Shown here: positions 24,313 through 46,451 of the stretch, in pieces
Layout of the letters: each line of letters begins with the position of its first letter
Numbering within the stretch: position 1 is the first letter of the stretch
From: Alphaproteobacteria bacterium
GTDB taxonomy: Bacteria; Pseudomonadota; Alphaproteobacteria; Rhizobiales; Xanthobacteraceae
NCBI GenBank assembly: GCA_037200445.1
Contig: JBBCGH010000001.1
Coordinates: forward strand, 4,335,162-4,399,161
Direction: 5' to 3'
DNA: 64,000 bases
Made by a program: the position numbers and the translations under genes
Notes under the pieces: model-generated
The model's database searches: none
The model's input: only the letters and a program-made list of their open reading frames with translations
What the model was told of the DNA's origin: nothing

Positions 24313-26358
24313 CTAATTGCGGATCGGCACGCCCTTGGTGGTGAAGCGCTGCATCTTGCGGCCGCCGTCGCTGATCGGGCGCCGCGTGCCGGCGGCCTTG
24401 CCGGTGCCGGGCGGCTGGTGGAACGGCACGAGCTGGTCGGGGCGCAAGCCGATCAGATCGGCGCGGCCCATGGCCTTTAGCGCCTCGCGCAGCAGCGGCC
24501 AGTTGTCGGGGTCGTGATAGCGCAGGAACGCCTTGTGCAACCGGCGCTGCCGCAATCCCCTGATCGCCTCGACCTTCTCGCTCGCGCCACGGCGCACGCC
24601 ACGCAGGGGATTGACGCCCGAGTGGTACATCGCAGTCGCGGTCGCCATCGGTGACGGCAGGAAGGTCTGTACTTGGTCGGCGCGATAGCGGTTCTTCTTG
24701 AGCCACAGCGCGAGGTTCATCATGTCCTCGTCGGTCGTGCCCGGATGCGCCGCGATGAAATACGGGATCAGATAATACTTCTTGCCGGCCTTCTGCGCGG
24801 CGGCGTCGAACATCTGTTTGAAGCGATTGTAGGTGCCGATGCCCGGTTTCATCATCTTGTCGAGCGGGCCCCGCTCGGTGTGTTCTGGCGCGATCTTCAG
24901 GTAGCCGCCGACGTGATGCGTGACGAGCTCTTCGATGTATTCCGGGCTTTCGACGGCGAGGTCGTAGCGCACGCCGGACGCGACCGTCACCTTCTTGATG
25001 CCTTTGGTTTCGCGCACCTTGCGATAGAGGCGGATCAATTCGTCATGGGAGGTGTTCAGGTTGGGGCAAATCTTGGGGAAGACGCAGGACGGCAGCCGGC
25101 ATGCGGCCTCGACCTTCGGATCCTTGCACGCCATACGATACATATTGGCGGTCGGCCCGCCGATGTCGGAGATCACGCCGGTGAAGCCCGGCGTCTTGTC
25201 ACGGATGCGCTCGATCTCGCGCAGGATCGAGCCTTCTGAACGGTTCTGGATGATGCGGCCTTCGTGCTCGGTGATCGAGCAGAATGTGCAGCCGCCGAAG
25301 CAGCCGCGCATGATCGTCACCGAGAACTTGATCATGTCCCAGGCCGGAATCTTCGCATCGCCATAGGACGGATGCGGCGCGCGCGCGTAAGGCAGGTCGT
25401 AGACCGCGTCCATCTCGTCGGAGGTCAGCGGAATCGGCGGCGCGTTGAGCCACAGGTCGCGATCACCGTGACGCTGTACGAGCGGGCGCGCATTGCCCGG
25501 ATTGGCCTCGCGATGCAGCACGCGTGAGGCGCGGGCATACGCTTCCTTGTCTTCCTCGACCTGCTCGCAGGACGGCAGCCGGATCACCGTAGCGCCGCGC
25601 TGACGGCTCGCGCCCTCGTCCGCGGAATCGAGATCGTCGGCGTGAAGCTCAATGTAGTTCTCGGGCACGCGGCGGAACAGCGCAACGCCGCGAATGTCAT
25701 CAAGCTCGCGGGGCGCTTCGCCGTTAGCGAGCCTGTGTGCCACCTCGACGACGGCACGTTCGGCGTTGCCATAGAGCAGCAAGTCCGCCTTCGCGTCGGC
25801 CAGAACCGAACGGCGCACCTTCTCGGACCAGTAGTCGAAATGCGCGATGCGGCGCAGCGACGCCTCGATGCCGCCGAGCACAATGGGAACATCCTTGAAC
25901 GCCTCGCGGCAGCGCTGCGCATACACGAGTGTGCAGCGATCCGGCCGCTTGCCGCCCACGCCACCCGGCGTATAGGCGTCGTCGTGGCGCAGACGTCGAT
26001 CCGCCGTGTAGCGGTTGACCATCGAATCCATATTGCCGCCGGTGACGCCGAAGAAGACGCGCGGCTTGCCGAGCGCCTTGAACGGCTCGGCCGAGTGCCA
26101 GTCAGGCTGGGCGATGATGCCGACGCGGAACCCCTGTGCTTCGAGCAGCCGGCCGATGATCGCCATGCCGAAGCTGGGATGGTCGACATAGGCGTCGCCC
26201 GTCACCAGCACGATGTCGCAGGCATCCCAGCCGAGCGCCGTCATCTCGGCGCGGCTCATCGGCAGGAACGGCGCCGCCTTGCCGGGATGCGCCCGCTGGC
26301 GCGGCCAGGACATCAAGGGCTTTTCGGCGGCCGCGAGGTTGCTCATGGGGCCACGCAT
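24313..26358 (-). CDS. ygiQ: YgiQ-family radical SAM protein
   Basis: N-terminal [43 protein letters not shown] and radical-SAM Cys cluster context [10 protein letters not shown]. Start at 26358 or 26346. Confidence 0.85.
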
Positions 26359-26464
26359 AAGACTCAAGGCCGGCAAATTCAACCAGCCGGAGCCCATTCT
26401 CTCGGGCGTGTCCGGGCAACAAATCCCGCGATTGTCCCCAGCACCCTGCCTATATCGATGTAGC

Positions 26465-27358
26465 TCACAAGAAACTACCTTGTGTGGTCTGCCGGTAAGG
26501 CCCGCGCTTTCCCGACTTCGGTAACGTTGCATCGATCATGTTCGCCAGATCGGTCACACTCCAAAGGGTCTCGCTAACGCCAGCGGCCATAGCGGGTGAC
26601 AGACCCTTCAGCGTCTTGTGCTGCTTCACGAAGTTGTACCAGACCGTGTAGAGCGCCACCATGTGCATGTGGTTCTCGAATTTCTTGGAGAACGTATTGG
26701 TCAGACGGGTAAAGCGGCGTATCTGCATCCGCATTGTAAGGTTCTGACGTTCCGCGAATGACGTGCTGATATGCTTCGGGTCCGGGCTCCCCTCAATCCG
26801 CTCTTTGCGCGCTCCAATACACTCTGCGGGGCTGTAGCGGCCCTTCATGCTCTCCGGCGCTTGGCCGTACAGCTTCACAAGCTGCGCGTAGTCAACGTCG
26901 CCGCCGAACGCGCCTTCAACCGCTTCGAGGTACGCGCGATGGCCGTCAGAGGCTAGCTGCACGCGGTTCGCAAGCCGCGACCGCTGATCGTCCATGAACG
27001 CCATCGCATAGTCACTGTCGCGGCCACCAACGAGCCAAGAGACAATCAGCTTGGACTCGGCATCAATCGCGGTCCACGTCCATGTATCGCCATAGGCCAA
27101 ATCCTGCCGCTTGGCGTGCGGGACGTTCTTCTGCTTCGCGTAGGTGAACGACCAGATTTCATCGACCTGCACGCGGCGGCTTTTCACGCCCTGCACGGTC
27201 GCGTCGTGGAAGACTGCGCACGCCTTCCCGGCATCGATCAGAAGCTTGGAAACGGTGTTGATGGAGACATCGCAGACCCGCGAAATCGACCCCATGGACG
27301 ACCCCTCGCAGAGCATGGAGAGGACTTGGACGCGGGTTTGAAGGGGTAGCTTGTTCAT
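26465..27358 (-). CDS. IS1-family-like DDE transposase (single ORF with N-terminal HTH)
   Basis: HTH ([16 protein letters not shown]), [28 protein letters not shown] and [30 protein letters not shown] resemble IS1/ISMhu11-type transposases. No terminal inverted repeats were found by eye. Confidence 0.6.
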
Positions 27359-27432
27359 GCCCCCCCGACCCTAATTGACAGGGAATATTTGTCAAGCATT
27401 CTGTTCAGGTTCACAGAATTGTAAACACGTTA

Positions 27433-27460
27433 TTGACTATTTAAGCGCCTGCTTTATAAG
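27433..27460 (+). promoter_or_regulatory. Candidate sigma70-type promoter for the XRE/ImmA gene
   Basis: TTGACT (27433-38), a 16-nt spacer, then TATAAG (27455-60), about 27 nt upstream of ATG 27487. Lies in an AT-rich divergent region that also holds two palindromes. Confidence 0.4.
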
Positions 27461-27486
27461 GACGATTTGAAAGAGGCGGACTTTCA

Positions 27487-28593
27487 ATGAACGACGCGCT
27501 GACGCCGGGGCAGCTTGTGCGGAATGCTATGAACGCCAAGGGTTGGGGGGAACGGGACTTGGCGTTTGCCATCGGAACCGCCCCGAACGCCATCAACCAA
27601 ATCCTAAACGACCGCCGGAGCATTAGCCACAGCATGGCTAGGGCGCTCGGGGTGGCGCTGGAACGACCGGCAGAGGACTTCGCACGCGCACAGGCCGAAT
27701 GGGACCTCAGGCGCACCGACGAACCCGACCCCCGTATTTCGGCGCGCGCCCGCATCTTGTCGCGCTACCCGCTGCGGGAGATGGTCAAGCGCGGCTGGAT
27801 CGATCCGGATCACCGTCCGGGCACGCTTGAAGAACAGGTCTGCCAGTTCTTTGGCGTCGCGTCGCTCGATGACGTTCCGCACCTAGAGCACTCCGCGAAG
27901 AAGTCTGACTATTCGGCCCTGCCGCCAGCGCAACTCGCTTGGCTGTTTCGCGTTCGACAAATCGCAAAGGAAATGCATCCACCCCCATACAGCGAAGAGA
28001 AGCTGCGAGAAGCAATCGATGTGCTGAAGGAAATGCGCACCGATCCTGAGGGCGTCCGGCATGTGCCGCGTCTACTGAACGATGCTGGCGTTCGCTATGT
28101 CGTGGCGGAAGGATTGCCGGGCGGCTTGATCGATGGCGTGTGCTTTTGGCTCGGCCCGAATACGCCGGTCATCGGAATGTCGCTGCGGTTCGACCGCATT
28201 GATAATTTCTGGTTCGTGCTTCGCCACGAGTGCGCGCACGTGCTGCACGGGCACGGCAAGGGACAGGCCATTGTTGATGAGGACATGGAGGCGAAAAGCC
28301 TTGCCTCAGACAATGAAGAAGAGCGCATCGCAAACACTGAGGCGGCTGATTTTTGCGTGCCCGCTGAGTCGATGCGTTCCTTCTATTTGCGGAAAAATCC
28401 GTTCTTTTCAGAGAGTGATGTTCTGGCGTTTTCGAAACGCATGAAGGTCCATCCCGGCCTAGCTGTGGGGCAACTCCAGCGGCTCGCTAAGCGATACGAC
28501 CTTTTGCGTAAGCACTTGGTTCGGGTTCGGTCTTACTTGGCCGGGTCAATGATGATGGACGGCTGGGGCGATGTTGTCCCAGTGGGCAGATGA
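27487..28593 (+). CDS. Fusion protein: XRE-type HTH plus ImmA/IrrE-family (COG2856) zinc metallopeptidase
   Basis: N-terminus LVRNAMNAKGWGERDLAFAIGTAPNAINQILNDRRSIS (Cro/C1-type HTH). HExxH in FVLRHECAHVLHGH with a downstream EERIANTEAADF segment. Confidence 0.8.
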   Translation: MNDALTPGQLVRNAMNAKGWGERDLAFAIGTAPNAINQILNDRRSISHSMARALGVALERPAEDFARAQAEWDLRRTDEPDPRISARARILSRYPLREMVKRGWIDPDHRPGTLEEQVCQFFGVASLDDVPHLEHSAKKSDYSALPPAQLAWLFRVRQIAKEMHPPPYSEEKLREAIDVLKEMRTDPEGVRHVPRLLNDAGVRYVVAEGLPGGLIDGVCFWLGPNTPVIGMSLRFDRIDNFWFVLRHECAHVLHGHGKGQAIVDEDMEAKSLASDNEEERIANTEAADFCVPAESMRSFYLRKNPFFSESDVLAFSKRMKVHPGLAVGQLQRLAKRYDLLRKHLVRVRSYLAGSMMMDGWGDVVPVGR

Positions 28594-28605
28594 AGGAGCG
28601 CCACT

Positions 28606-29094
28606 ATGGGCACCTACAAAGAGAACATGCTCGCCATTTGGGAGCAGTACTGCGAAGAGGTTTCGGCCGATCCGGCGGACCTTCGCGAGCTTGGCGATTG
28701 GGCGATCAAGAAGAGGCTATGGTCCCCTCGACCCGTTGACATCGCGGCAAGCTTCGCACGCGATATGGCGGACATCCTTCGTGAGCAAACGCGCCGCGAC
28801 AAGGATGGGCGCGAATATCGTGCTTTCATTCCGGCAAGAACGAGCGGCAAGGATGGAGCGCCTCTATTCAAGTGGGCTGACATCGATCTTGCGCCGCGTG
28901 CTCATGTCGAGAAGGGCGTTCAAAACGAGCGCCGTCAGATCGCGAACGATTGCTTCGCGCTGGCCATGAAGGTGGATCACTACAACGCAACGCACCCGAA
29001 GGAAGAGCAGCTAGTAATCCCGCTCAACTTCGAGGAAGACGTTGAGGAAATGAAAATTGCTCGGGGAATCGGCGAGGAAGACGACGCGGCCTAA
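28606..29094 (+). CDS. Hypothetical protein with an acidic tail, coupled to the XRE/ImmA gene
   Basis: GAAGGAG lies 7 nt before ATG 28606, and the gene starts 12 nt after the upstream stop. 162 aa, C-terminus EEDVEEMKIARGIGEEDDAA. No family recognised. Confidence 0.6.
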   Translation: MGTYKENMLAIWEQYCEEVSADPADLRELGDWAIKKRLWSPRPVDIAASFARDMADILREQTRRDKDGREYRAFIPARTSGKDGAPLFKWADIDLAPRAHVEKGVQNERRQIANDCFALAMKVDHYNATHPKEEQLVIPLNFEEDVEEMKIARGIGEEDDAA

Positions 29095-29318
29095 CGCGTC
29101 TTTTTCCAGCGGGCACCAGCCGCCGCACGCGCAATCTCCGAACGCTGTTCAGGCGTAAGAGCCGCCGCGCGTGCCTTGCCACCTTTCAGGCCGCCCTTGG
29201 CGCGCTTAGGGGCTTTGCCGTAGTCCTCGTCAGCCTCGCCAGTCGCGACCCGCATCACGCGAACCGCGTTGCCGATGACATCGGCTGGGCGTTTCTCGCC
29301 TTTGGGGCCTCTAGGCAT
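29091..29318 (-). CDS. Small basic protein (75 aa), unknown function
   Basis: MPRGPKGEKRPADVIGNAVRVMRVATGE...KGGKARAAALTPEQRSEIARAAAGARWKK. I recall this pattern from mobile or prophage contexts in Alphaproteobacteria. Its 3' end overlaps the convergent gene by 4 nt. Confidence 0.5.
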   Translation of the reverse strand: MPRGPKGEKRPADVIGNAVRVMRVATGEADEDYGKAPKRAKGGLKGGKARAAALTPEQRSEIARAAAGARWKKTR

Positions 29319-29583
29319 AGTCCCAACCTATTTCGTCATCCCAACCCATTTTGTAGCACCTCATGTAGTCATAGGCACAATAGAAGCCCAGCAACTTGAT
29401 TAGGTTCATCTGAATCTCTCGGGCGTCCGAGAGACCGGCAATGGCTTCTTCAATCTGGTAGTCATTGGATAGACCGGCGCGGGCGGCCCAATACCCCTTG
29501 GCGGGCCTCGCTGCGCTGGTCCCAAGACGAAAATGCTTTCGGTCTTGCCCAGCTTGACGCGGGGAAAATTCGCTGTGCTGCAT
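29311..29583 (-). CDS. Hypothetical ORF (90 aa or shorter)
   Basis: Open frame overlapping the downstream small gene by 8 nt. Only the C-terminal part (MNLIKLLGFYCAYDYMRCYKMGWDDEIGWDYA) looks protein-like. Weak support. Confidence 0.3.
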   Translation of the reverse strand: MQHSEFSPRQAGQDRKHFRLGTSAARPAKGYWAARAGLSNDYQIEEAIAGLSDAREIQMNLIKLLGFYCAYDYMRCYKMGWDDEIGWDYA

Positions 29584-29725
29584 TGGAGCCTCGCGTGCCA
29601 GTAGTCTGGCACGCGCTCATAATAGGCCCGTCCGGCCTAGCCCGCTATCCCGGCCCCGTCGGACCAAATTCAAACTGAGACACTACCTGGCCAAAGCAGA
29701 CCTTCAAAATCGACGGGTGCGCGAC

Positions 29726-30664
29726 CTAGCTTGCGCGGCGCTGAGGCTGTTGCACCGCCTTCACGCGGTGGTCGAGCCGCAGGGTGAGACAGCAGGCCGA
29801 CCCGCCCGAACGCTGGAACGCATCGAGCGGCGTTTCGATCACGCGGTAGCCGCGCTCCTCGAGCGTGCGCCGCAGCGCCGGGCTGGCCGACGAGAGCACG
29901 ATGTTACGGCCGACCACGACGGCGTTCGCGGCGAAGCGCGCGGCATCCTCGGATGAAAGCGCGATGCGGTCGGCCGGCGCAACATGTGCATGGATCGTCT
30001 CCAGCGCCGCGGACGTGAACGCGCCCGGATAGTAGATGACGCTCCCGCAGGGCAGCGCGCACATCGCGGTGTCGAGATGATAGTAGCTCGCCTCGCTGAG
30101 CTTGAGCGGCAGGCACGGCACGCCGAACGCGGCCTCGATCTCGCGCGCGGCCGCCTCGTCCGAGCGAAAGCCGCAACCCATCCAGAACAGTTTTCGCGTG
30201 CGGTCCCACAGGCAGTCGCCTGCGCCTTCGAGCGCGATGCCGCGCGGCAGCTCGATCACCGTGTCGATCAGGGAGCGCTCGGCGAGCGCGCGGAAGGCCG
30301 CGGCGAACACCGGCTCCTCGATTTGCCGCTCCGGATGACGGAAGCGCGCCAGCAGCGCCTTGCCGTCGAGCACCACCGCGGCGTTGGCGGTGAAGACGAG
30401 ATCCGGCGCGCCTTCGAGCGGCGGGACCGTTTCGATGATCGCGCCCGCCTCGCGCAGCGTCGCATGCAGCGCCATCCACTGCTGCGCGGCGCGCGCCTGC
30501 AAGGCAGTGCCATCGTCCGCCCACTTGGCCGGGTCCATCCAGGGATTGATGCTGTAGGTGACCGCGAAGTGCTGCGGCGGGCACATCAGGAAGCGAGGCG
30601 TCGCAACGGTCAAGGTGCTGGACCTTTCTGCCGGCGAATCGAAGCGCGCGGCGCAGCGTAACAC
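29726..30664 (-). CDS. Amidinotransferase / dimethylarginine dimethylaminohydrolase-fold enzyme (guanidino-group modifying superfamily)
   Basis: RFLMCPPQHFAVTYSINPWM at the N-terminus and the catalytic-Cys context SGGSACCLT near the C-terminus. The first ATG in a good context is at 30586, so the true start is uncertain. Confidence 0.75.
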   Translation of the reverse strand: MLRCAARFDSPAERSSTLTVATPRFLMCPPQHFAVTYSINPWMDPAKWADDGTALQARAAQQWMALHATLREAGAIIETVPPLEGAPDLVFTANAAVVLDGKALLARFRHPERQIEEPVFAAAFRALAERSLIDTVIELPRGIALEGAGDCLWDRTRKLFWMGCGFRSDEAAAREIEAAFGVPCLPLKLSEASYYHLDTAMCALPCGSVIYYPGAFTSAALETIHAHVAPADRIALSSEDAARFAANAVVVGRNIVLSSASPALRRTLEERGYRVIETPLDAFQRSGGSACCLTLRLDHRVKAVQQPQRRAS

Positions 30665-30738
30665 GCGCCATCAGGTAGGCGGCGGTGCGTCGCCTGCAAG
30701 ACCGCAGGACAATTTGCGCGGATTAAGAAAGGGTAATC

Positions 30739-31923
30739 TTACGCCGGCACGGCCTTCGCGAGATATTCCACCGCCGCTTGCGCGCCGCCCTTGCCGTGCG
30801 GGATGGCAAGCGCCGCGAGCGCCATCTCCACGACGCTGAGCGTGCCGAAGATCATCGGCGCATTGACGTGGCCCATGTGCGCAATGCGGAACGCCTTGCC
30901 CTCATGCGCGCCCAAACCCCGCCCGAGCACCACGCCGCACTTGTCGCGGCAGTAGTTCGCGATCGCAGTCGAGCTTGCGCCATTGCGCATCAGCACGGTG
31001 GTGACCGTGTCGGAGCGCTCCTCCGGCTCCGAGCAGTTGAAGCCGATCGACTGCCCCTCGGCCCAGGTGCCGACCGCGCGGCGCGTCGCCTCGGCGAGCA
31101 GGCGATGGCGCGCGAACGCGTTCTCCACTCCCTCGGCGAAGAGCAAGTCGAGCGCGGCGCGCAGTCCGAACAGCAGGTGCTCCGGCGGCGTGCCGCAGTA
31201 TTTGTGGTAGTGCACATCGCCGTCGCGGAAGGTCCAGTCCCAGTAGGGCGTGCGCATGTTGGCAGTCTTGTGCGCGTCGCGCGCACGCGGACCAGCGGCG
31301 GTGAACGAGAGGCCCGGCGGCGTCATCAGCCCCTTCTGCGAACCCGCCATCGCGACGTCCACACCCCACTTGTCCATCTCGAACGGCATGCAGCCGAGCG
31401 AGGCGACCGCATCGACCATGAGCAGCGCATCGCTGCCCGCCGCATCGCGCGCCTTGCCGATCGCCGCGATATCGTTCTGCACGCCGGACGCGGTATCGAC
31501 CTGCGTCACCAGGATCGCCTTGATGCTGCGGTCCGCCTTGAGCTTCGCCTCCACGGCTTCCGGCTGCACGGCGCGGCGGATATCGCCTGCGAGCACCTCG
31601 ACCTCGGCGCCGAGCATCTTCGCGGCCTCTCCCCAGGCGATCGCGAAGCGCCCGCTTTCCAGCACCAGCACCTTGTCGCCGCGCGAGAGCACGTTGGTGA
31701 GCGCGGCCTCCCAGGCGCCATGGCCGTTCGCCGCGTAGATGTAGGAGCGCCCCGCGGTGTTGAAGATGCGGCTCATGTCGGCGAGCAGCGAGTCGGTGAG
31801 CGCGACCAGCGGCCCCGCATAGATGTCGACCGCCGGCTTCTGCATGGCGGCGAGCACGGTATCCGGGATGACGGTCGGACCCGGGATGGAGAGAAATTCA
31901 CGGCCGGCGGAAACGGACATCAT
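30739..31923 (-). CDS. Class V PLP-dependent aminotransferase (serine-glyoxylate/alanine-glyoxylate type)
   Basis: FLSIPGPTVIPDTVLAAM at the N-terminus and the PLP-Lys context AGSQKGLMTPPGLSF. Confidence 0.85.
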   Translation of the reverse strand: MMSVSAGREFLSIPGPTVIPDTVLAAMQKPAVDIYAGPLVALTDSLLADMSRIFNTAGRSYIYAANGHGAWEAALTNVLSRGDKVLVLESGRFAIAWGEAAKMLGAEVEVLAGDIRRAVQPEAVEAKLKADRSIKAILVTQVDTASGVQNDIAAIGKARDAAGSDALLMVDAVASLGCMPFEMDKWGVDVAMAGSQKGLMTPPGLSFTAAGPRARDAHKTANMRTPYWDWTFRDGDVHYHKYCGTPPEHLLFGLRAALDLLFAEGVENAFARHRLLAEATRRAVGTWAEGQSIGFNCSEPEERSDTVTTVLMRNGASSTAIANYCRDKCGVVLGRGLGAHEGKAFRIAHMGHVNAPMIFGTLSVVEMALAALAIPHGKGGAQAAVEYLAKAVPA

Positions 31924-32157
31924 TATCCTCGTTGGGGGAAACGGAAACGCGCCTGCCTAGCATGTTTTGCTGCGCCGTCCGATCAATGAATTTGACTGAT
32001 GGATCAACGGGATTGACGGCGCGGCGGCGCCGCGCGCCCGCTGTGGTCCCTCCCGCCGCACGGGGAGGAACGGGGTGGGAACCTTTTTTTGCCGCAAAGC
32101 CGCCTATACTACCTATGGTTAAGTCATTTCAAACCTGAGATTTGAAGGAGCACGATC

Positions 32158-32502
32158 ATGGCACTCACTTACGAACTGCAGCGCGATTGCCTGAACAACG
32201 CGGAGGACGCCGGCGGCCGCTGGCAGATCGAAGGCGGCAAGGCGTTCGAGGAGAAGAAGCACGTCGCCAATTATTCGAGCGTGAAACGGGTCAGCTGTGG
32301 CACGCAGGAGCAGAACACGGCGCAGCTGTGGCTCACTTTGTTCTTCATCGGGCAGAAGCCGCCCGAGAACATCACCCTGCACGGCGCGCACGACTTCAAC
32401 AGCGGCGGCGAGATCGGCAGCGTCAGCGCGGCGTCGGGCGCGTTCGCGCCGCACATCGGCAAGCAGTTCAAGCGCGTCGTGAACACGCTCACCATCGCGT
32501 AG
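32158..32502 (+). CDS. Hypothetical protein (114 aa)
   Basis: AAGGAG lies 8 nt upstream of the ATG. Codon usage looks native. No family recognised. Confidence 0.6.
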   Translation: MALTYELQRDCLNNAEDAGGRWQIEGGKAFEEKKHVANYSSVKRVSCGTQEQNTAQLWLTLFFIGQKPPENITLHGAHDFNSGGEIGSVSAASGAFAPHIGKQFKRVVNTLTIA

Positions 32503-32658
32503 CCGGCGCGGCGGAAGCGGCATCCCGTCCGGGACAACGAGCGGAGCGCGCCAGCCGGCGAAGCGGCGCGCTCCAGGCCTTGACGCGCCTCGCGAAGGGG
32601 CCGATCTCCGGTGCGCCGGAGATCGCCGGCCGATACGGCCAGCCCGCGGGGAAACGTC

Positions 32659-33648
32659 ATGACCTTGCACCGCCGCCGATTTCTGCATGTCGCGGCCGCC
32701 GCCGCGTTGCCGGCGCTCCCGCGCAGCGCTGCCGCCGAGATCTACCCGAGCCGCCCCATCACATTCATCGTGCCCTTCCCGCCCGGCGCCGCCACGGACG
32801 TTTGCGCCCGCATCGTGGCCGACCACATGTCGCGCACGCTTGGGGTACAGCTCATCGTCCAGAATGTCGCGGGCGCCGGCGGCACCGTCGGCTCGACCCG
32901 CGCAATGCGCGCGGAGGCGGATGGCTACACCATCCTGATGGGGCAGATGGGCACCCACGCGGCCGCCGTCGCGCTCTATCCGAACCTTGCCTACCGGCCG
33001 GCCGAGGACTTCGAGGCAATCGGCATGGTCGCGGGCTTTCCGCTGATGATCGTGGCGCGCAAGGATTTTCCCGCGGACGATCTCAAAGAATTTATCGCTT
33101 ACCTGAAAGCGAACGATGCCGGGATCAATCAGGGGCACGCCGGCGTCGGCTCAATCTTCTTCACCGCGTGCCTCCTCTTCAATTCGATGCTCGGCACCAA
33201 GCCGACGCTGGTGCCGTTCGCCGGCGGCGCGCCGGCCATGAACGCGCTGGTGGGCGGCCAGGTCGATTTTATGTGCGCCGACATCCTCACCGGCGCGCCG
33301 CATTTCCTCGACGGCAAGGTCAAGGCCTTTGCGCTGGCGGCGCCGGCGCGCAATGCGAACATACCGACCGTCCCGACCACCGCCGAAGCCGGGCTACCCG
33401 ACTACGTGGTGACCGGCTGGAACGGCCTGTTCGCGCCGAAGGACACACCGGCGCCGATCGTCGATCAGCTCGCAGCGGCGCTCGACAAGGCGCTCGACGA
33501 CGAGACGACGCGAAAGAGGTTGACCACGCTCGGCTGCGACATCCCCGGCAAGCCGCAGCGCGGGCCGGCGCCGTTCCGCGCTTTGGTCAAAGCCGAGATC
33601 GCGCGCTGGAGCCCGATCATCAAGGCGGCTGGGGTGAGGATGGATTAG
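32659..33648 (+). CDS. Tripartite tricarboxylate transporter substrate-binding protein (Bug/TctC family)
   Basis: Start at MTLHRRRFLHVAAAAALPALP (Tat-like signal). YPSRPITFIVPFPPGAATD and VTGWNGLFAPKDTP are Bug-family hallmarks. Confidence 0.85.
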   Translation: MTLHRRRFLHVAAAAALPALPRSAAAEIYPSRPITFIVPFPPGAATDVCARIVADHMSRTLGVQLIVQNVAGAGGTVGSTRAMRAEADGYTILMGQMGTHAAAVALYPNLAYRPAEDFEAIGMVAGFPLMIVARKDFPADDLKEFIAYLKANDAGINQGHAGVGSIFFTACLLFNSMLGTKPTLVPFAGGAPAMNALVGGQVDFMCADILTGAPHFLDGKVKAFALAAPARNANIPTVPTTAEAGLPDYVVTGWNGLFAPKDTPAPIVDQLAAALDKALDDETTRKRLTTLGCDIPGKPQRGPAPFRALVKAEIARWSPIIKAAGVRMD

Positions 33649-33806
33649 GCTCTGACTTGAGAGCCGACACTAACGCGCAGCTTTAGACAGACTTGCAGTC
33701 ATTCCAGTCACGGTCGTGTTGGCAGAACACCCATCTGCGCCCGGGTCCGCATATTGTTGATTGAAAACATCCATATCTGTGACTCCCGCCCCGAAATTAT
33801 TTACAA

Positions 33807-34850
33807 TTGCAATATGTTAGCGTGATTCTATGTACGGCCCGTTCAGATGGCATCACCGTGAGTGTCGAACAAGAATTAGCGACAGACCACAGCGACCCCG
33901 CGCAACTACTTGCAAGTTTGCGCAGGGACTATTCGGGTTTGTCTTCTCGCATTCGTGATCTGCGTCACTCCGTAACTTCGAACTGCTCCGGTGTCACGTT
34001 TCGCCTGCACTTTCCCGCACTCCGAGACGGAGCGGCGACGGTGTCGGATTTAGTGAATGTTGTTGTCCGTTACCTGACCGTATTCGCCCTGCCGCGCTCC
34101 CGTATTGCAGAGCTCGACGAACAAATTGGACAAATCTCTGCGGACGAATTCAGACTTCGAACGCTGGCGCTTCAGCAAGAAGCGACCAGCCTCTTCATGC
34201 GTTCGCAACAGGCTACCAGACGAAACGGCGAAGCAGGAGAGCTTTTGCTTTTCTTGTTGACGGAATGGGCCTTGGAGGCACCTCAATTACTGGCAAAGAT
34301 GAGTCTGAAAACCAACCGTGAGATGCCCGTCCACGGATCAGATGGGATTCACGTCAAGTACTGTCCCGTTAACAAGAAGCTCCTTCTCTACTGGGGTGAG
34401 TCCAAGATTCACAAGGATGTAGGAAAAGCAGTAAGTAGTGCTGTTACTTCAATTGTAACCGCCCTGAAGGACGAAAACATCAATCACGAGCTGAAGCTCG
34501 TAGAGCGATTCATCGACTTGAGCGGGCTTACGCCTGCGGCGAAGGCTGCGGTACTAGGGCATCTAGACCCGCTCGACGAGCGTTCCAATCAGCGTATCAA
34601 TATCACAACTTGCCTAATTGGCTTTGATTTCGACGCATATGAAAAGAATGAAGTTATAAAGAGTCCAGACCCTGAGGCAGCATTCCGCCTGCTCGCTATA
34701 GCAAAGTTGGGAGAGCTCGCTCCGCGAGTCGCTACCGCACTAGCCAACGCTGGCATCCATGATCACAAGATCGAGCTTTTCTTTTTTCCGGTCCCGTCGG
34801 TCGAAACGTTGAGAGATCTATTCCAAGCGGCGATCGGCTGGAAACGATGA
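33807..34850 (+). CDS. hamA: DUF1837/HamA-like protein (putative PD-(D/E)xK nuclease effector of a Hachiman-type system)
   Basis: Core NGEAGELLLFLLTEWALEAPQLLAKMSLKTNREMPVHGSDGIHVKY...LLLYWGESKIHKD matches my memory of the DUF1837 signature (GExGE..L, K.s....v.G.DG.H, GE(S/A)K). GESK is at 34395-34406. The listed start is TTG; GTG at 33822 or 33858 is possible. Low G+C. Confidence 0.7.
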   Translation: MQYVSVILCTARSDGITVSVEQELATDHSDPAQLLASLRRDYSGLSSRIRDLRHSVTSNCSGVTFRLHFPALRDGAATVSDLVNVVVRYLTVFALPRSRIAELDEQIGQISADEFRLRTLALQQEATSLFMRSQQATRRNGEAGELLLFLLTEWALEAPQLLAKMSLKTNREMPVHGSDGIHVKYCPVNKKLLLYWGESKIHKDVGKAVSSAVTSIVTALKDENINHELKLVERFIDLSGLTPAAKAAVLGHLDPLDERSNQRINITTCLIGFDFDAYEKNEVIKSPDPEAAFRLLAIAKLGELAPRVATALANAGIHDHKIELFFFPVPSVETLRDLFQAAIGWKR

Positions 34851-36829
34851 TTCAGGATCTTTCTGACAAGGTGTGGTCGAATCCACGCTTTCACACGACA
34901 GCCAAGGCCGTTGAAGCTGCTTGGCTCAGAAGAGAACTCGGAATCAATACTGAATCATTGGTCACCGAGAATATTGCCGCGAGAGCCATGGAAGCCGCGG
35001 CCATCTTGGCGTGCTCAAGACAACTCGAACGGAGGCGAGCCGCACACCGCGTTGCGACGTGCGCATTCGAGCTGTTTGAGAAAAGTGATCTACCTTTTGA
35101 TGCGGCGCTGCGAGTAGTACTGGCTCGGCTTTCAAATTTTCCAGCGATGATAACTAAGAAAGAGATCGACGATTCAATAAGTACTTTACCGTGGGTCTTC
35201 GCCCTAGAAGAGCTCGTCGCTGCAGATAGGACAACGATCCAAATTAACAATCGCCTCGTCCGACTAACGAACTATCAGCGGCGATTGTGGGATAGTCTGC
35301 AACGTAAACAGTCTGTGGCTCTCTCCGCTCCTACTTCTGCGGGGAAGTCTTTCATCCTTCAGCTGTACATATCATCCATTTTTGCGAATGGTGCGCCCTC
35401 GGTTGTCTACATAGTTCCAACGCGAGCGCTAATTTCCCAAGTAGCCCGCGAGATCGATGAGCTATTTCGTAAGGAGGGGCAAGTTGTTCCGGAAATCGTT
35501 ACAGTCCCGCTGAGATCGGGTGCCGACCCTCCAAGCTCCTCAATCTACGTCATGACTCAGGAGCGTGTTCACCTGTCCCTTGAGTCTAATCCGCTCTTGC
35601 ACGCTACTCTTCTCGTTGTTGATGAAGCTCACTCTATTGCTGAGGGCTCGCGGGGCATTCTGCTGCATAGCGTGATTGACCAGCTACTACGCCGCAATCC
35701 CACAGCCCAAGTATTGTTTGCTAGTCCAACCACGCGCAACTTGTCGCTTTTCGGAGAGCTTTTTGCTCTGGAGGTCGAAAGACGCCCTTCGCGAGAACCA
35801 ACTGTTTCTCAAAACTTCTTGTTTGTTAGCTCGAATAGTCCAGCCAAGGGCCACGTCGCAATCAGCGCCACGGATGGAACGCGACAGCCAATATCAATCG
35901 GCGAGATACAAACTGGCCTAGCCTTGTCTAGTCGAATCGACCGGCTAGCGCATCTTCCAGACAAACTGTGCGCCAGACAACCTAATCTCGTTTACGCAAA
36001 CGGCGCCGACGAAGCCGAAGAGATTGCCTTGCGGATAGCCAGAACTCGCGAAAATCGCGAGCCAACAGCTCGGCTCCTGGCACTCCGGACACTCTCGGCC
36101 GAGTCAGTACATCGCAAGTACATTCTCGGCGAATGTGTAATAAAGGGTGTCGGATTTCATTATTCCAACATACCGACAGTCGTACGTCACGAGATTGAGG
36201 CGGCATTTGCCTCCGGCGATTTGGACTGCCTTGTATGCACAAGCACTCTGTTGCAGGGCGTCAACCTTCCCGCGAAGAATATCTTCATGTTGAAGCCTAC
36301 AAGGGGGCGGGACTCACCAATGGAATCCCCCGACTTCTGGAACTTGTCCGGGAGAGCCGGCCGTCTGATGCGAGAGTTTCAGGGGAACATCTTTTTAATT
36401 GACTACCACAGTTGGAGCAGGAAGCCGCTCAGCGGCCCAAAGGATACCGAAATTGCATCGGCCATCGAAACGACAGTTCGATTCCGACAAGAAGAGCTAG
36501 CAAATGTCATAGCGGGTGCCGAAGGAGGGCGATTTAGGCGCAGACCAATTGATCTAGATAGCGCTTTCGTTCGTCTTCTCTCGGACCTAAGAGATGGATC
36601 CCTTCGGCAGACATTCGAGCGAATTGGATTGCCGGCGAGCGAGCGCGCCGAGTTGACCGCTGCTTTAGAGAGCGCAGGCGCTGCGATTCTCGCTTCCGGA
36701 CGAAGTGTTGCGGCGTACGCCAAGCGTCTCTCCGCACAAACAGCAAAGGTTGTACCGGCGACTAAAGGGGCTGATCGATCACCAACCGAGCACTATCCAG
36801 AATCTCATTCCCCTCCACCCACGCGATGA
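34847..36829 (+). CDS. hamB: SF2 DEAH-box helicase, HamB-like (N-terminal roughly 615 codons credible; the tail after about 36690 is out of frame)
   Basis: ATGA overlap with hamA. Walker A APTSAGKS (35327-35350), DEAH (35621-35632), motif III FASPT, motif VI SGRAGR (36347-36364). The last roughly 45 codons (SVAAYAKRLSAQTAKVVPATKGADRSPTEHYPESHSPPPTR) look non-coding. Confidence 0.75.
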   Translation: MIQDLSDKVWSNPRFHTTAKAVEAAWLRRELGINTESLVTENIAARAMEAAAILACSRQLERRRAAHRVATCAFELFEKSDLPFDAALRVVLARLSNFPAMITKKEIDDSISTLPWVFALEELVAADRTTIQINNRLVRLTNYQRRLWDSLQRKQSVALSAPTSAGKSFILQLYISSIFANGAPSVVYIVPTRALISQVAREIDELFRKEGQVVPEIVTVPLRSGADPPSSSIYVMTQERVHLSLESNPLLHATLLVVDEAHSIAEGSRGILLHSVIDQLLRRNPTAQVLFASPTTRNLSLFGELFALEVERRPSREPTVSQNFLFVSSNSPAKGHVAISATDGTRQPISIGEIQTGLALSSRIDRLAHLPDKLCARQPNLVYANGADEAEEIALRIARTRENREPTARLLALRTLSAESVHRKYILGECVIKGVGFHYSNIPTVVRHEIEAAFASGDLDCLVCTSTLLQGVNLPAKNIFMLKPTRGRDSPMESPDFWNLSGRAGRLMREFQGNIFLIDYHSWSRKPLSGPKDTEIASAIETTVRFRQEELANVIAGAEGGRFRRRPIDLDSAFVRLLSDLRDGSLRQTFERIGLPASERAELTAALESAGAAILASGRSVAAYAKRLSAQTAKVVPATKGADRSPTEHYPESHSPPPTR

Positions 36830-37394
36830 GAATGCGTACGGCTCTTATGCAGACGCACTCGGATTGTGTCACGAGCTCATTCTCGGCTTAGACCCAGCGC
36901 GGGGCCTCCATAGATTCCACGCCCTAATGGCGATGCAGTGGATGCAAGGGTGGTCCCTCCCTCGAATTATTGGCGACAGGCTTAGACGCCGTCCGAAGGC
37001 TAACCCTCGAATCATTATTCGGAATACGCTGGAGCTAATTGAAACTCAGATTAGGTTTCAGACACTGCGACTCTTTGGTTGCTATAATGCTGTGTTGGAA
37101 TTCGCTCTCCAGCAGGCTGGCGAGAGGCAGCTGTCAGACCACATTCCCGATGTGGAGCTATTCTTGGAAGTCGGTGCCTCCAACCAGACGATGATAAGTT
37201 TCATCTCGCTGGGTTTATCACGTGCCGCAGCCGTCCGTCTGAGCGGCGCGCGCGAGGAAGACGAGCCTGAACTGGAAATTGAGGACGCCCTAGAATGGCT
37301 GCGCCGGCAGGACCTGGATGCCCTTGGCCTATCGCCGCTACTCCGCGCTGAAGTGGATGCGTTGCTGGAAAAGCTAAGACCAAGATCGAACTAA
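36705..37394 (+). CDS. hamB: C-terminal domain of the HamB-like helicase in a different frame (frame open from 36669)
   Basis: The frame reads ...LPDEVLRRTPSVSPHKQQRLYRRLKGLIDHQPSTIQNLIPLHPRDENAYGSYADALG... to the stop at 37392-37394. It has no SD or ATG of its own (the listed start is GTG), so it is most simply a continuation of hamB after a 1-nt indel. Confidence 0.55.
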   Translation: MLRRTPSVSPHKQQRLYRRLKGLIDHQPSTIQNLIPLHPRDENAYGSYADALGLCHELILGLDPARGLHRFHALMAMQWMQGWSLPRIIGDRLRRRPKANPRIIIRNTLELIETQIRFQTLRLFGCYNAVLEFALQQAGERQLSDHIPDVELFLEVGASNQTMISFISLGLSRAAAVRLSGAREEDEPELEIEDALEWLRRQDLDALGLSPLLRAEVDALLEKLRPRSN

Positions 37395-37420
37395 GGACGC
37401 GTTCGAGCTCGACCACTTCA

Positions 37421-37452
37421 CCCCCGGATCAGCGCTTCGCGCCGTCCGGGGG
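37421..37452. terminator. GC-rich hairpin shared by the convergent hamB and rpoD 3' ends
   Basis: cccccgga (37421-28), a 16-nt loop, then tccggggg (37445-52). Lies between the stops at 37394 and 37460. No T-run on either side. Confidence 0.45.
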
Positions 37453-37459
37453 CTAAAGG

Positions 37460-39859
<2,400 letters not shown>

Positions 39860-39896
39860 AACTGTCCTCTGCGCAGCCCTTGGGGCCGCGGATAGC

Positions 39897-39922
39897 GAAA
39901 AAGGGCAGCGCAAGCGCCACCC
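39897..39922 (-). terminator. Hairpin plus T5 between the dnaG stop and the rpoD start
   Basis: Minus strand reads gggtggcgcttgcgctgccctttttc. The stem has two G-U pairs and ends about 38 nt upstream of the rpoD ATG. Confidence 0.35.
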
Positions 39923-40081
39923 GTCACGAATCAAGGCCGGAAGTCTGGGCAGGGCTCATTAAGCCCCGATTAACCCTCGATCAACCGGCCAAACCTGGCC
40001 TTTTCCCGGTTCCCCCGCGATGCCACCGCGCCCGGCGCAACTTGTCTCCCTACCCTATGTACGGAGTCTCGGTTTTTTGCC

Positions 40082-46374: not shown

Positions 46375-46451
46375 GACCCGGTGGCGGAGTGTAACGCGGG
46401 GGCGCAGCAAACGTCCTTCACGTCTGGTTCGAATCCAGACCCGGGTCTCCA
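46375..46451 (+). tRNA. tRNA-Cys(GCA)-like gene with non-canonical features
   Basis: 77 nt. Acceptor stem gacccgg/ccgggtc (7 bp), T8, D arm gcgg-agtgtaa-cgc, anticodon stem gggcg/cgtcc, loop cAGCAaa, T arm (g)tctgg-ttcgaat-ccaga(c), discriminator T and an encoded CCA. AATAAT lies about 6 nt upstream of the 5' end. Confidence 0.55.

What the first reader, a model, noticed from the sequence alone, without database searches (positions are those of the whole stretch)
33660..37455. Low-GC two-gene nuclease/helicase defence island (Hachiman-type architecture) placed tail-to-tail with rpoD
Composition changes abruptly between the TctC-type gene (stop 33648) and rpoD (stop 37460). A 100-nt sample at the start of the helicase gene, counted by hand, is about 50% G+C, whereas the flanks look like about two-thirds. 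The island holds two genes coupled by an ATGA overlap. The first has the pattern I associate with DUF1837/HamA: GEAGELLLF, then K-x-N-x-x-x-P-V-H-G-S-D-G-I-H, then GESK, i.e. a PD-(D/E)xK-like D...ExK. The second is an SF2 helicase with Walker A APTSAGKS, DEAH, and motif VI SGRAGR. That pairing is the published Hachiman (HamA/HamB) anti-phage architecture. This copy is diverged enough that I recognise only the motifs. Its HamA start is unclear (no ATG start codon, and roughly 130 residues precede the core). No integrase, tRNA or flanking repeat explains how it arrived. It is the strongest candidate in the window for a dedicated immune system and could be an unsampled variant.
Basis: partly seen in the sequence, partly recalled or inferred. 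Interest (0 to 1): 0.8.

Follow-up and report, generated by a model that had tools for sequence, protein, structure and literature searches.

The report
Ordinary Hachiman anti-phage gene pair
This is a standard two-gene Hachiman (HamA nuclease plus HamB helicase) anti-phage system in an uncultured soil alphaproteobacterium; it sits in a slot next to the essential rpoD gene where related genomes carry different foreign genes, so it is a well-known kind of system in a mildly interesting location.

Summary
Window 33650-37460 is a low-GC block (0.53 against 0.65; GC3 0.55 against 0.87-0.91) holding hamA and hamB joined by an ATGA overlap and convergent with rpoD.

It is not a diverged variant. Both proteins match Hachiman profiles end to end (HamA1 E=7e-105; repaired HamB1 E=1e-256). 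The D162/E181/K183 nuclease triad is invariant in 35 homologues. The only significant fold matches of the HamA model are solved HamA chains. It is a plain type I (I-A) Hachiman.

HamA starts at GTG 33858 (330 aa). The hamB frameshift is one extra T at 36687/36688. An independent assembly of the same organism (SRR28211699) lacks it and encodes an intact 848-aa HamB.

Four related lineages keep tctC and rpoD as neighbours. One carries the same Hachiman (HamA 90% identical). Three carry other low-GC cargo: a methylase with a GmrSD-like nuclease, a dCTP-deaminase/DUF1643/Nmad2 set, and unknown genes with a ParE toxin.

The variable segment reaches about 43 nt into rpoD. The last 13 codons are recoded without changing the protein, and sisters keep decayed rpoD-tail copies. 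No integrase, tRNA or repeat is present in the window.

Verdict: new member of a known kind, low interest.

The parts
33649..33857 (+). Left arm of the island, from the base after the tctC stop to the hamA start. It holds a promoter-like site, GTGACT-17 nt-TACAAT, at 33779-33807. Homology to the second Hachiman-bearing lineage (L166) begins at 33801.
   Evidence: Homology to sisters L003 and L004 ends at 33651 and 33649. Promoter-like match. The -10 box is conserved as TATAAT in L166. Promoter function is inferred, not shown.
33858..34850 (+). hamA: 330-aa DUF1837 PD-(D/E)xK-type effector nuclease with a GTG start.
   Evidence: Pfam PF08878 E=1.4e-47. PADLOC HamA1 PDLC00165 E=6e-105, residues 15-330 on profile positions 4-307 of 308. 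NCBI calls a 330-aa product, MEJ0078003.1. The GTG is conserved in L166 and a 2-nt indel breaks the upstream frame. AF2 model has pLDDT 86 and pTM 0.87. The only significant PDB fold hits are HamA chains 8zue_A, 8vx9_A and 8vxy_A.
34341..34406 (+). HamA catalytic D...ExK: D162 (34341-34343), E181 (34398-34400), K183 (34404-34406).
   Evidence: These columns are invariant in the 35-sequence alignment A1. Coordinates. The equivalent E/K residues are required for defence in characterised systems: E138A/K140A in ECOR31 (PMC12278908) and E150A/K152A in DEC14B (PMC11914072).
34847..37394 (+). hamB: Ski2/Hel308-like SF2 sensor helicase. It is 848 aa once one T at 36687/36688 is removed. As written in the window it splits into 34847-36829 (660 aa) and 36705-37394.
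   Evidence: In PADLOC HamB1 PDLC00187 the window fragments match profile positions 5-611 and 623-845 of 851. The repaired protein matches 5-844 of 851 in one stretch, E=1.4e-256. Pfam DEAD, ResIII and Helicase_C. PDB hits include 9wh1_B at 3.5e-46, HamB 8vx9_B and 8zue_B.
35327..35350 (+). HamB motif I (Walker A), APTSAGKS.
   Evidence: Motif I mutants abolish defence in E. coli Hachiman (PMC11914072).
35621..35632 (+). HamB motif II, DEAH.
   Evidence: The motif II D431A mutant abolishes ECOR31 defence (PMC12278908).
36347..36364 (+). HamB motif VI, SGRAGR.
   Evidence: within the Pfam Helicase_C match.
36687..36688 (+). Single-base insertion (TT where the other assembly has T; GATTCTC against GATCTC) that frameshifts hamB.
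   Evidence: It is the only difference in 11,290 aligned bases between the window and Logan contig SRR28211699_2916.
37421..37452 (.). GC-rich hairpin (9+4 bp) between the convergent hamB and rpoD stops. It may act as a two-way transcription barrier, but has no U-tract on either strand.
   Evidence: centroid structure, but z-score only -1.1 against shuffles. It is not conserved in sister genomes. Function is inferred and weak.
37460..37502 (-). The last ~13 codons and stop of rpoD, recoded synonymously. This is the right-hand junction of the variable segment.
   Evidence: Window against L004: 24 mismatches in the last 45 nt against 0-4 per 45-nt bin upstream, with identical protein. blastn homology to the L004 and L003 rpoD genes stops at 37499 and 37479. 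Seven different tail versions occur among the genes and remnants.
32659..33648 (+). tctC-family (Bug) periplasmic binding protein gene. This is the conserved left flank of the slot.
   Evidence: PF03401 on record. 82-85% identical orthologues flank the slot in L003, L004, L083 and L166.
37460..39859 (-). rpoD (sigma-70, 799 aa as called in the MAG). This is the conserved right flank, followed by dnaG.
   Evidence: Sigma70 domains on record. Synteny.

Best explanation
The island is a canonical two-gene type I (I-A) Hachiman anti-phage system. The mechanism below is inferred from the characterised E. coli systems.

- HamB, a Ski2/Hel308-like DNA helicase, binds HamA through its N-terminal helical bundle and holds the nuclease inactive while the complex surveys intact dsDNA.
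- Phage replication or DNA damage produces free 3' ssDNA ends. An end enters the helicase core and ATP hydrolysis ratchets HamB.
- This releases or activates the HamA D162/E181/K183 nuclease. HamA degrades phage and host DNA indiscriminately, which is abortive infection.

What is shown here: family membership of both proteins, intact catalytic and ATPase motifs, operon coupling, foreign composition, and patchy presence among relatives.

The hamB frameshift in the window is one inserted T that an independent assembly of the same organism lacks. The organism therefore most likely carries, or at least has an allele of, an intact and functional system.

The pair sits in a variable slot between tctC and rpoD. 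Related Xanthobacteraceae-like genomes hold other defence-like cargo in that slot. Cargo turnover there involves replacing the last ~13 codons of rpoD. This points to recombination or integration at the rpoD 3' end, followed by loss of any integrase.
For: Family membership:
- Pfam HamA E=1.4e-47; DEAD, ResIII and Helicase_C for HamB.
- PADLOC HamA1 E=7e-105. HamB1 E=1e-186 plus 5e-61 for the two fragments, and E=1.4e-256 as one stretch after removing the T.
- D162, E181 and K183 are invariant in 35 homologues.
- Helicase motifs I, II and VI are present.
- The AF2 HamA model (pLDDT 86) matches only solved HamA chains, at probability 1.0.
- HamB matches solved HamB helicases.
- ATGA coupling of the two genes.
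- The Bradyrhizobium relative has the same hamA-hamB (844 aa) layout in a different neighbourhood.

Frameshift: one T in 11,290 bases, absent from the Logan contig.

Foreign origin and slot:
- GC and GC3 contrast.
- Three syntenic relatives carry different cargo and one carries the same Hachiman.
- rpoD-tail remnants in sisters and a recoded rpoD tail in the window.

Mechanism: PMC12278908 and PMC11914072.
Against: - As written in the window, hamB is broken after residue ~614. The C-terminal ~230 residues are out of frame. If that is the true state, the system is dead here.
- No experiment or expression data exist for this MAG.
- Sequence identity to the characterised E. coli HamA proteins is only 13-14%, and fold TM-scores are moderate at 0.45-0.59. 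Details of activation could therefore differ.
- The closest solved HamB (9wh1_B) comes from a trypsin-MBL Hachiman variant. That variant uses a different effector logic from the plain nuclease type.
- No integrase, att repeat or rpoD remnant is present in the window itself, so the arrival route is inferred from sister loci only.
Confidence: 0.9

Rival explanations
1. It is a decaying Hachiman pseudogene. The extra T is real and fixed in this organism, HamB lacks its C-terminal third, and the locus no longer defends.
For: The deposited MAG contig carries the frameshift, and the gene call there is a 660-aa truncated product. The insertion makes a TT dinucleotide, not a long homopolymer where sequencing errors concentrate. 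A sister cargo gene, Nmad2 in L003, is also frameshifted, so decay does happen in this slot.
Against: An independent assembly of run SRR28211699 is identical over 11,290 bases except that it lacks this T, and it encodes a full 848-aa HamB that fits the profile in one stretch. No other lesion is present: all motifs are intact and the C-terminal ORF is still stop-free for 229 codons. That fits a very recent change or an artefact better than long decay.
Confidence: 0.3
2. It is a different Hachiman-like variant rather than the plain nuclease type. Candidates are AbpAB (type I-B, Cap4-fused), PADLOC type II (with hamC), or the trypsin-MBL Hachiman.
For: The second-best PADLOC models are HamA2 and HamB2 (E=1e-80 and 1e-165). 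The best solved HamB relative is from the trypsin-HamAB complex 9wh1.
Against: HamA is 330 aa with only the DUF1837 domain and an intact D-ExK site. It has no Cap4 or trypsin fusion. The island has exactly two genes, with no room for hamC or an MBL gene between tctC and rpoD. The best profile matches are HamA1 and HamB1.
Confidence: 0.03
3. It is a housekeeping DNA-repair helicase-nuclease pair (Hel308-like) with no role in immunity.
For: HamB shares the Ski2/Hel308/Pol-theta helicase core. Hachiman responds to DNA damage in general (PMC12278908).
Against: It has foreign composition, a patchy distribution among close relatives, and sits in a slot otherwise filled with restriction-like and toxin genes. 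No NCBIfam repair-helicase model reaches its cut-off (best 88 bits against 887). Defence-system profiles give far stronger full-length matches.
Confidence: 0.03

Closest known systems
Type I-A Hachiman, stand-alone DUF1837 HamA with active D-ExK plus HamB. Examples: E. coli ECOR31 HamAB (PDB 8VX9; PMC12278908) and E. coli DEC14B HamAB (PMC11914072).
   Same: Two co-oriented, translationally coupled genes. HamA is DUF1837 only, with a conserved D...ExK site. HamB is a Ski2-like SF2 helicase with an N-terminal extension and motifs I, II and VI. The fold of the HamA model matches 8vx9_A and 8vxy_A.
   Different: Only 13-14% sequence identity to the solved HamA chains. HamB is 848 aa against 1174 aa in ECOR31, with a weak sequence match (E=3e-17). 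Nothing has been tested experimentally here. hamB is frameshifted in this assembly.
Alphaproteobacterial HamA/HamB pairs, for example Bradyrhizobium WP_157158066.1 (P0008), plus Mesorhizobium and Rhodopseudomonas palustris homologues.
   Same: 51-60% identity over about 90% of HamA, the same lengths (325-334 aa), and the same hamA-hamB (844 aa) operon.
   Different: Different genomic context. The Bradyrhizobium copy lies next to a SNIPE/T5orf172 nuclease and a resolvase, not next to rpoD.
Trypsin-HamAB / MBL Hachiman variant (PDB 9WH1; bioRxiv 10.1101/2025.09.03.673762).
   Same: Its HamB is the closest solved relative of this HamB (E=3.5e-46 over residues 135-712).
   Different: Its HamA is 528 aa with an added N-terminal domain and matches the HamA profile only weakly (E=0.04). 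The window has no protease domain and no MBL gene.
Core defence hotspots flanked by conserved chromosomal genes, as in Pseudomonas aeruginosa cDHS (PMC10250203) and E. coli integration hotspots (PMC10121019).
   Same: A fixed slot between conserved genes (tctC and rpoD) holds different defence-like cargo in related genomes. The slot has no mobility genes.
   Different: Only five lineages were sampled, all uncultured. One junction lies inside the 3' end of an essential gene, with recoded terminal codons and decayed tail copies. I did not find this described for rpoD.

Membership tests
Hachiman (type I / I-A) | HamA carries a DUF1837 (PF08878) domain | tested here: met
   Pfam E=1.4e-47, 162.9 bits against a cut-off of 25, covering profile positions 2-230 of 230. 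PADLOC HamA1 E=7e-105.
Hachiman (type I / I-A) | The DUF1837 domain keeps the catalytic D...ExK residues (this separates I-A from I-B, I-C and I-D) | tested here: met
   D162, E181 and K183 are invariant in alignment A1 of 35 homologues. Definition from PMC11914072.
Hachiman (type I / I-A) | HamA fold resembles solved HamA | tested here: met
   AF2 pLDDT 86. Foldseek top three hits are 8zue_A, 8vx9_A and 8vxy_A at probability 1.0, E=5e-7 to 4e-5, TM 0.45-0.59. The next hit has E=0.13.
Hachiman (type I / I-A) | HamB is an SF2 Ski2-like helicase with motifs I, II and VI and HamB-specific N- and C-terminal regions | tested here: met
   PADLOC HamB1 profile positions 5-844 of 851 in one stretch, E=1.4e-256, for the repaired protein. 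Pfam DEAD and Helicase_C. Motifs.
Hachiman (type I / I-A) | hamA and hamB are adjacent, co-oriented and in one operon, with no further obligatory gene | tested here: met
   ATGA overlap at 34847-34850. Only these two genes lie between tctC and rpoD.
Hachiman (type I / I-A) | Uninterrupted hamB reading frame (functional state, not family identity) | tested here: inconclusive
   Broken by one T in the window. Intact in Logan contig SRR28211699_2916, which is otherwise identical.
Hachiman (type I / I-A) | HamA-HamB heterodimer in which HamB restrains the nuclease | not testable with these tools
   No multimer prediction or biochemistry is available. Inferred from PMC12278908.
Hachiman (type I / I-A) | Protection against phage by abortive infection, triggered by DNA damage | not testable with these tools
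   Needs cloning and plaque assays.
AbpAB / type I-B Hachiman | HamA homologue has an N-terminal Cap4-like nuclease fused to a catalytically dead DUF1837 | tested here: not met
   HamA is 330 aa with a single Pfam domain and an active-site triad.
PADLOC Hachiman type II | HamA2/HamB2 as best models plus a third gene, hamC | tested here: not met
   The best models are HamA1 and HamB1. There is no third gene in the island.
Trypsin-MBL Hachiman | Trypsin-like protease fused to or next to HamA, plus an MBL-fold effector | tested here: not met
   No such domain or gene is present. Only HamB resembles 9wh1_B.
Site-specific integrative island targeting a gene's 3' end | Integrase or recombinase gene in the island | tested here: not met
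   None in the window island or in the cargo of L003, L004 and L083.
Site-specific integrative island targeting a gene's 3' end | Direct repeat or displaced copy of the target gene's 3' end at the far side of the island | tested here: not met
   No remnant or repeat in the window. Remnants exist only in the sisters, at L003:9596-9901, L003:15151-15300 and L004:7439-7535.
Site-specific integrative island targeting a gene's 3' end | The target gene's 3' end is replaced by an island-borne copy that encodes the same residues | tested here: met
   24 of 45 synonymous-only mismatches in the last 45 nt of rpoD against L004, compared with 25 of 855 upstream.

The most novel reading that the evidence does not exclude
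The interval between tctC and the last ~13 codons of rpoD may be an undescribed defence-cargo exchange slot in a clade of uncultured Xanthobacteraceae-like bacteria. Each incoming cassette would bring its own synonymously recoded RpoD C-terminus and leave decayed rpoD-tail copies behind, with no resident integrase. If so, the unannotated cargo genes in sister genomes would be candidates for new defence genes. These are L083:2318-4280 (431 aa plus 219 aa), L004:4450-5103 (217 aa) and L003:14354-14872 (172 aa). None of them matches PADLOC; the L083 and L004 proteins also have no Pfam match, and the L003 172-aa protein was not searched against Pfam.
Probability: 0.4. Interest if true: 0.45.

Novelty: new member of a known kind. 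Interest (0 to 1): 0.2.

Why it matters
On its own it adds one more Hachiman to a family found in more than 5% of prokaryotic genomes (PMC12278908), so it changes little. It has three modest uses.

1. It flags an apparent single-base frameshift in a deposited MAG that would make automated tools call a broken system.

2. It gives a plain nuclease-type Hachiman whose helicase is nearest, among solved structures, to the trypsin-MBL variant. That could help trace how effectors were swapped on one helicase scaffold.

3. It points to a chromosomal slot at the 3' end of rpoD where cargo turns over. Such slots have been productive places to look for new defence genes.

Tried and rejected
- Direct phmmer of HamA against PDB sequences gave nothing. 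A 35-sequence profile reached only 9wh1_A at E=0.04. The link to solved HamA came from fold comparison instead.
- Exact look-up of the 345-aa TctC ORF failed, probably because the ORF start differs from the called gene. The HamA cluster representative P0001 located the source instead.
- I searched the window for an rpoD-3' remnant or any flanking direct or inverted repeat, using blastn with word size 7 and the repeat finder. Only chance-level matches turned up.
- tRNA and Rfam scans found nothing near the island.
- blastn against plasmids found only ~68% matches to the helicase core on Rhizobium plasmids, so no plasmid source was identified.
- The TTG at 33807 as the HamA start was rejected. 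A 2-nt indel in L166 breaks that frame, and the N-terminal length from the GTG matches homologues.
- The hairpin at 37421-37452 as an intrinsic terminator is not supported. It has no U-tract and a z-score of -1.1.
- A single vertical acquisition shared by the window and L166 lineages is not clearly supported. On 462 nt of tctC, L166 groups with the Hachiman-less L003 and L083 (92-93%) rather than with the window (89%). The segment is too short to be decisive.
- A literature search for an rpoD-linked defence hotspot found none. The rpoD mentions looked like reference-gene uses, judged from titles only.

Full report
**1. What is there**

The window comes from NCBI MAG GCA_037975565.1, contig JBBCBH010000033.1 (5.84 Mb, 'Alphaproteobacteria bacterium'). 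Window position 1 is about record position 428,793. Its nearest relatives by the flanking tctC gene are uncultured Xanthobacteraceae and Rhodoplanes-like MAGs.

Between the tctC-family gene (stop at 33648) and rpoD (stop at 37460-37462, minus strand) the composition drops sharply:
- GC is 0.534 for 33649-37459 and 0.650 for the rest of the window.
- Third-codon-position GC is 0.55 for both island genes, against 0.87 for tctC and 0.91 for rpoD.

**2. Identity**

The first gene matches Pfam HamA/DUF1837 across the whole model (E=1.4e-47). It matches a PADLOC HamA1 model nearly end to end (E=7e-105).

The second gene matches PADLOC HamB1 over profile positions 5-611 of 851. A third ORF in the +1 frame continues at positions 623-845. 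So this is one hamB gene with a frameshift.

In a 35-sequence alignment of HamA homologues, D162, E181 and K183 (the D...ExK triad) are invariant. So is the GEAGE segment (G124, E125, G127, E128). HamB has motif I (APTSAGKS), motif II (DEAH) and motif VI (SGRAGR).

An AlphaFold2 model of HamA (pLDDT 86, pTM 0.87) has only three significant PDB fold matches. All three are HamA chains from solved E. coli Hachiman complexes: 8zue_A, 8vx9_A and 8vxy_A, at probability 1.0. TM-scores are moderate (0.45-0.59) and identity is 13-14%.

HamB matches solved HamB helicases and the Hel308/Pol-theta/Ski2 group.

HamA is 330 aa with no fused domain, and there is no third gene. In the published scheme this is therefore type I-A: stand-alone, catalytically competent DUF1837 (PMC11914072). 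It is not AbpAB-like, not PADLOC type II and not the trypsin-MBL variant. This holds even though the closest solved HamB (9wh1_B, E=3.5e-46) belongs to that last variant.

**3. How diverged is it?**

Not very. Apart from its own cluster, the best HamA relatives are 60% identical. More than 100 proteins are 50-60% identical over about 90% of the length, with E below 1e-100. They come from Bradyrhizobium, Mesorhizobium, Rhodopseudomonas, Azospirillum, Ensifer and Pseudomonas.

NCBI already names the protein a DUF1837 domain protein (MEJ0078003.1). A Bradyrhizobium relative has the same hamA-hamB (844 aa) operon, but next to a SNIPE/T5orf172 nuclease and a resolvase. So the pair moves between genomic contexts. 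The suggestion of an 'unsampled variant' is not supported.

**4. The two open points in the finding**

*HamA start.* The long ORF begins at TTG 33807, but four things point to GTG 33858:
- NCBI's 330-aa call starts there.
- Homologues are 325-334 aa, and their N-termini line up with that start.
- The GTG is conserved in a second lineage, L166.
- In L166 a 2-nt indel breaks the frame upstream of it.

A promoter-like site lies just upstream at 33779-33807. Its -10 box is conserved as TATAAT in L166. Promoter function is inferred only.

*hamB frameshift.* A Logan assembly of run SRR28211699 (contig of 11,290 bp, equal to window 26254-37544) is identical to the window except for one base. The window has GATTCTC at 36685-36691 where the contig has GATCTC. 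Without that T, hamB encodes 848 aa and fits the HamB1 profile in a single stretch (E=1.4e-256, 852 bits). There is no other lesion.

I therefore rate an assembly error or minor allele as more likely (about 0.6-0.7) than a fixed pseudogene. Only the reads can settle it.

**5. Mechanism (inferred from the family)**

In E. coli ECOR31, HamB binds and restrains HamA while the complex surveys intact dsDNA. A free 3' ssDNA end entering the helicase triggers ATP hydrolysis and ratcheting. HamA is then activated, and both phage and host DNA are degraded, which is abortive infection. E138A/K140A in HamA or D431A in HamB abolish defence, and DNA-damaging agents trigger the system without phage (PMC12278908).

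The DEC14B type I-A system behaves similarly: E150A/K152A and Walker A mutants are dead (PMC11914072).

The window's proteins keep all the corresponding residues, so the same mechanism is the best-supported reading. The steps shown here are identity, motifs, fold and operon structure. Complex formation, the trigger and the phenotype are inferred.

**6. How it got there**

The window itself has no integrase, no nearby tRNA (nearest is tRNA-Cys at 46375), no flanking repeat and no Rfam element. Relatives are more informative. Four other lineages keep tctC next to rpoD or have the tctC side of the slot:

| Locus | Cargo between tctC and rpoD |
|---|---|
| L004 | 4.1 kb, low GC (0.44-0.55): a type II methyltransferase, a GmrSD_N/NsnA-like nuclease, an unknown 217-aa gene and a DUF2442 gene |
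| L003 | 4.6 kb, low GC: dCTP-deaminase-like, DUF1643, a weak TIR-like match and a frameshifted Nmad2 |
| L083 | 3.5 kb: two unknown genes (431 and 219 aa, no Pfam or PADLOC match), DUF2442 and a ParE/RHH toxin-antitoxin pair |
| L166 | A 2.9-kb metagenome contig: tctC, one extra gene, then the same Hachiman (HamA 90% and HamB 86% identical, 81.6% at DNA level, also low GC) |

So the pair is accessory cargo in a variable slot. It is present in two of five sampled lineages.

On 462 nt of tctC, L166 groups with the Hachiman-less L003 and L083 (92-93%) rather than with the window (89%). This hints at replacement or exchange rather than simple inheritance, but the segment is short.

**7. The right junction is inside rpoD**

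The window and L004 encode identical RpoD residues over the last 300 codons. They differ at 25 of 855 upstream nucleotides, but at 24 of the last 45. blastn homology stops at 37499.

The final 13 codons ([13 protein letters not shown]) are thus recoded, including AGC-to-TCT type serine switches that ordinary drift at about 3% divergence would not produce.

The sister loci also hold decayed copies of the rpoD 3' end, each running up to its own stop codon:
- L003:9596-9901 (306 bp)
- L003:15151-15300
- L004:7439-7535

All seven tails, real and remnant, differ from one another.

This is the scar pattern left when incoming DNA replaces the 3' end of a target gene. It fits either site-specific integration whose recombinase was later lost, or homologous exchange with a breakpoint in rpoD. 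The window has no displaced remnant, so I cannot tell these apart. I found no description of an rpoD-linked hotspot in the paper library. The general phenomenon of core-gene-flanked defence hotspots is known (PMC10250203, PMC10121019).

**8. Verdict**

This is a new member of a known, abundant family, probably intact in the organism. It lies in a cargo slot that is of modest interest in its own right. Interest 0.2.

Noticed in passing
L003:9596-9901 and 15151-15300; L004:7439-7535: Decayed partial copies of the rpoD 3' coding end, each running to its own stop codon. They lie downstream of the real rpoD in sister genomes. One (L003:9596-9901, 92% identical to window 37464-37768) lies on the far side of tctC, next to a 1181-aa repeat protein gene. 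That placement is not explained by a simple tandem-insertion model.
   Followed up: partly
L083:2318-4280: Two adjacent low-GC genes (431 aa and 219 aa) with no Pfam or PADLOC match. They occupy the same tctC-rpoD slot, next to DUF2442 and a ParE/RHH toxin-antitoxin pair. By position they are candidates for an undescribed defence pair.
   Followed up: partly
L004:4450-7397: Three-gene minus-strand cassette in the slot: a type II-like DNA methyltransferase (406 aa), a GmrSD_N/NsnA-like DUF262 nuclease (350 aa) and an unknown 217-aa protein. GC is 0.44-0.55.
   Followed up: partly
L003:11960-14872: Slot cargo of nucleotide-metabolism type: dCTP-deaminase-like (202 aa), DUF1643 (179 aa), a weak ThsB/TIR-like match (150 aa, E=3e-6), an unknown 172-aa protein with no PADLOC match (not searched against Pfam), and an Nmad2 gene split by a frameshift.
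   Followed up: partly
window 27487-29094: A 368-aa HTH_3 plus Peptidase_M78 (ImmA/IrrE-like) protein matches PADLOC PD-Lambda-2_B (E=4.7e-49). It is followed by an unannotated 162-aa gene and lies in a lower-GC patch (0.55-0.59). This may be part of a second defence or toxin-antitoxin-like module. The other PD-Lambda-2 components were not found among the neighbours tested.
   Followed up: partly
window 26465-27295 (minus strand): A 276-aa ORF with a marginal IS1-type DDE transposase match (E=4e-5), right beside the lower-GC patch. This may be a mobile-element remnant.
   Followed up: no
window 29091-29583 (minus strand): Two small overlapping genes (75 and 90 aa) with no Pfam or PADLOC match. 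Their layout looks like a toxin-antitoxin pair.
   Followed up: no
L166:606-1148 and L003:11254-11616: A high-GC gene sits directly after tctC in L166 and L003 but is absent from the window, L004 and L083. It is 180 aa in L166 and called as 120 aa in L003, which had no Pfam match. So the left edge of the slot also varies.
   Followed up: no
window 37460-39934: The longest rpoD ORF (824 aa from TTG) is longer than the 799-aa call in the MAG. The N-terminus is an Ala/Pro/Lys-rich low-complexity tract, so the true start is uncertain.
   Followed up: no
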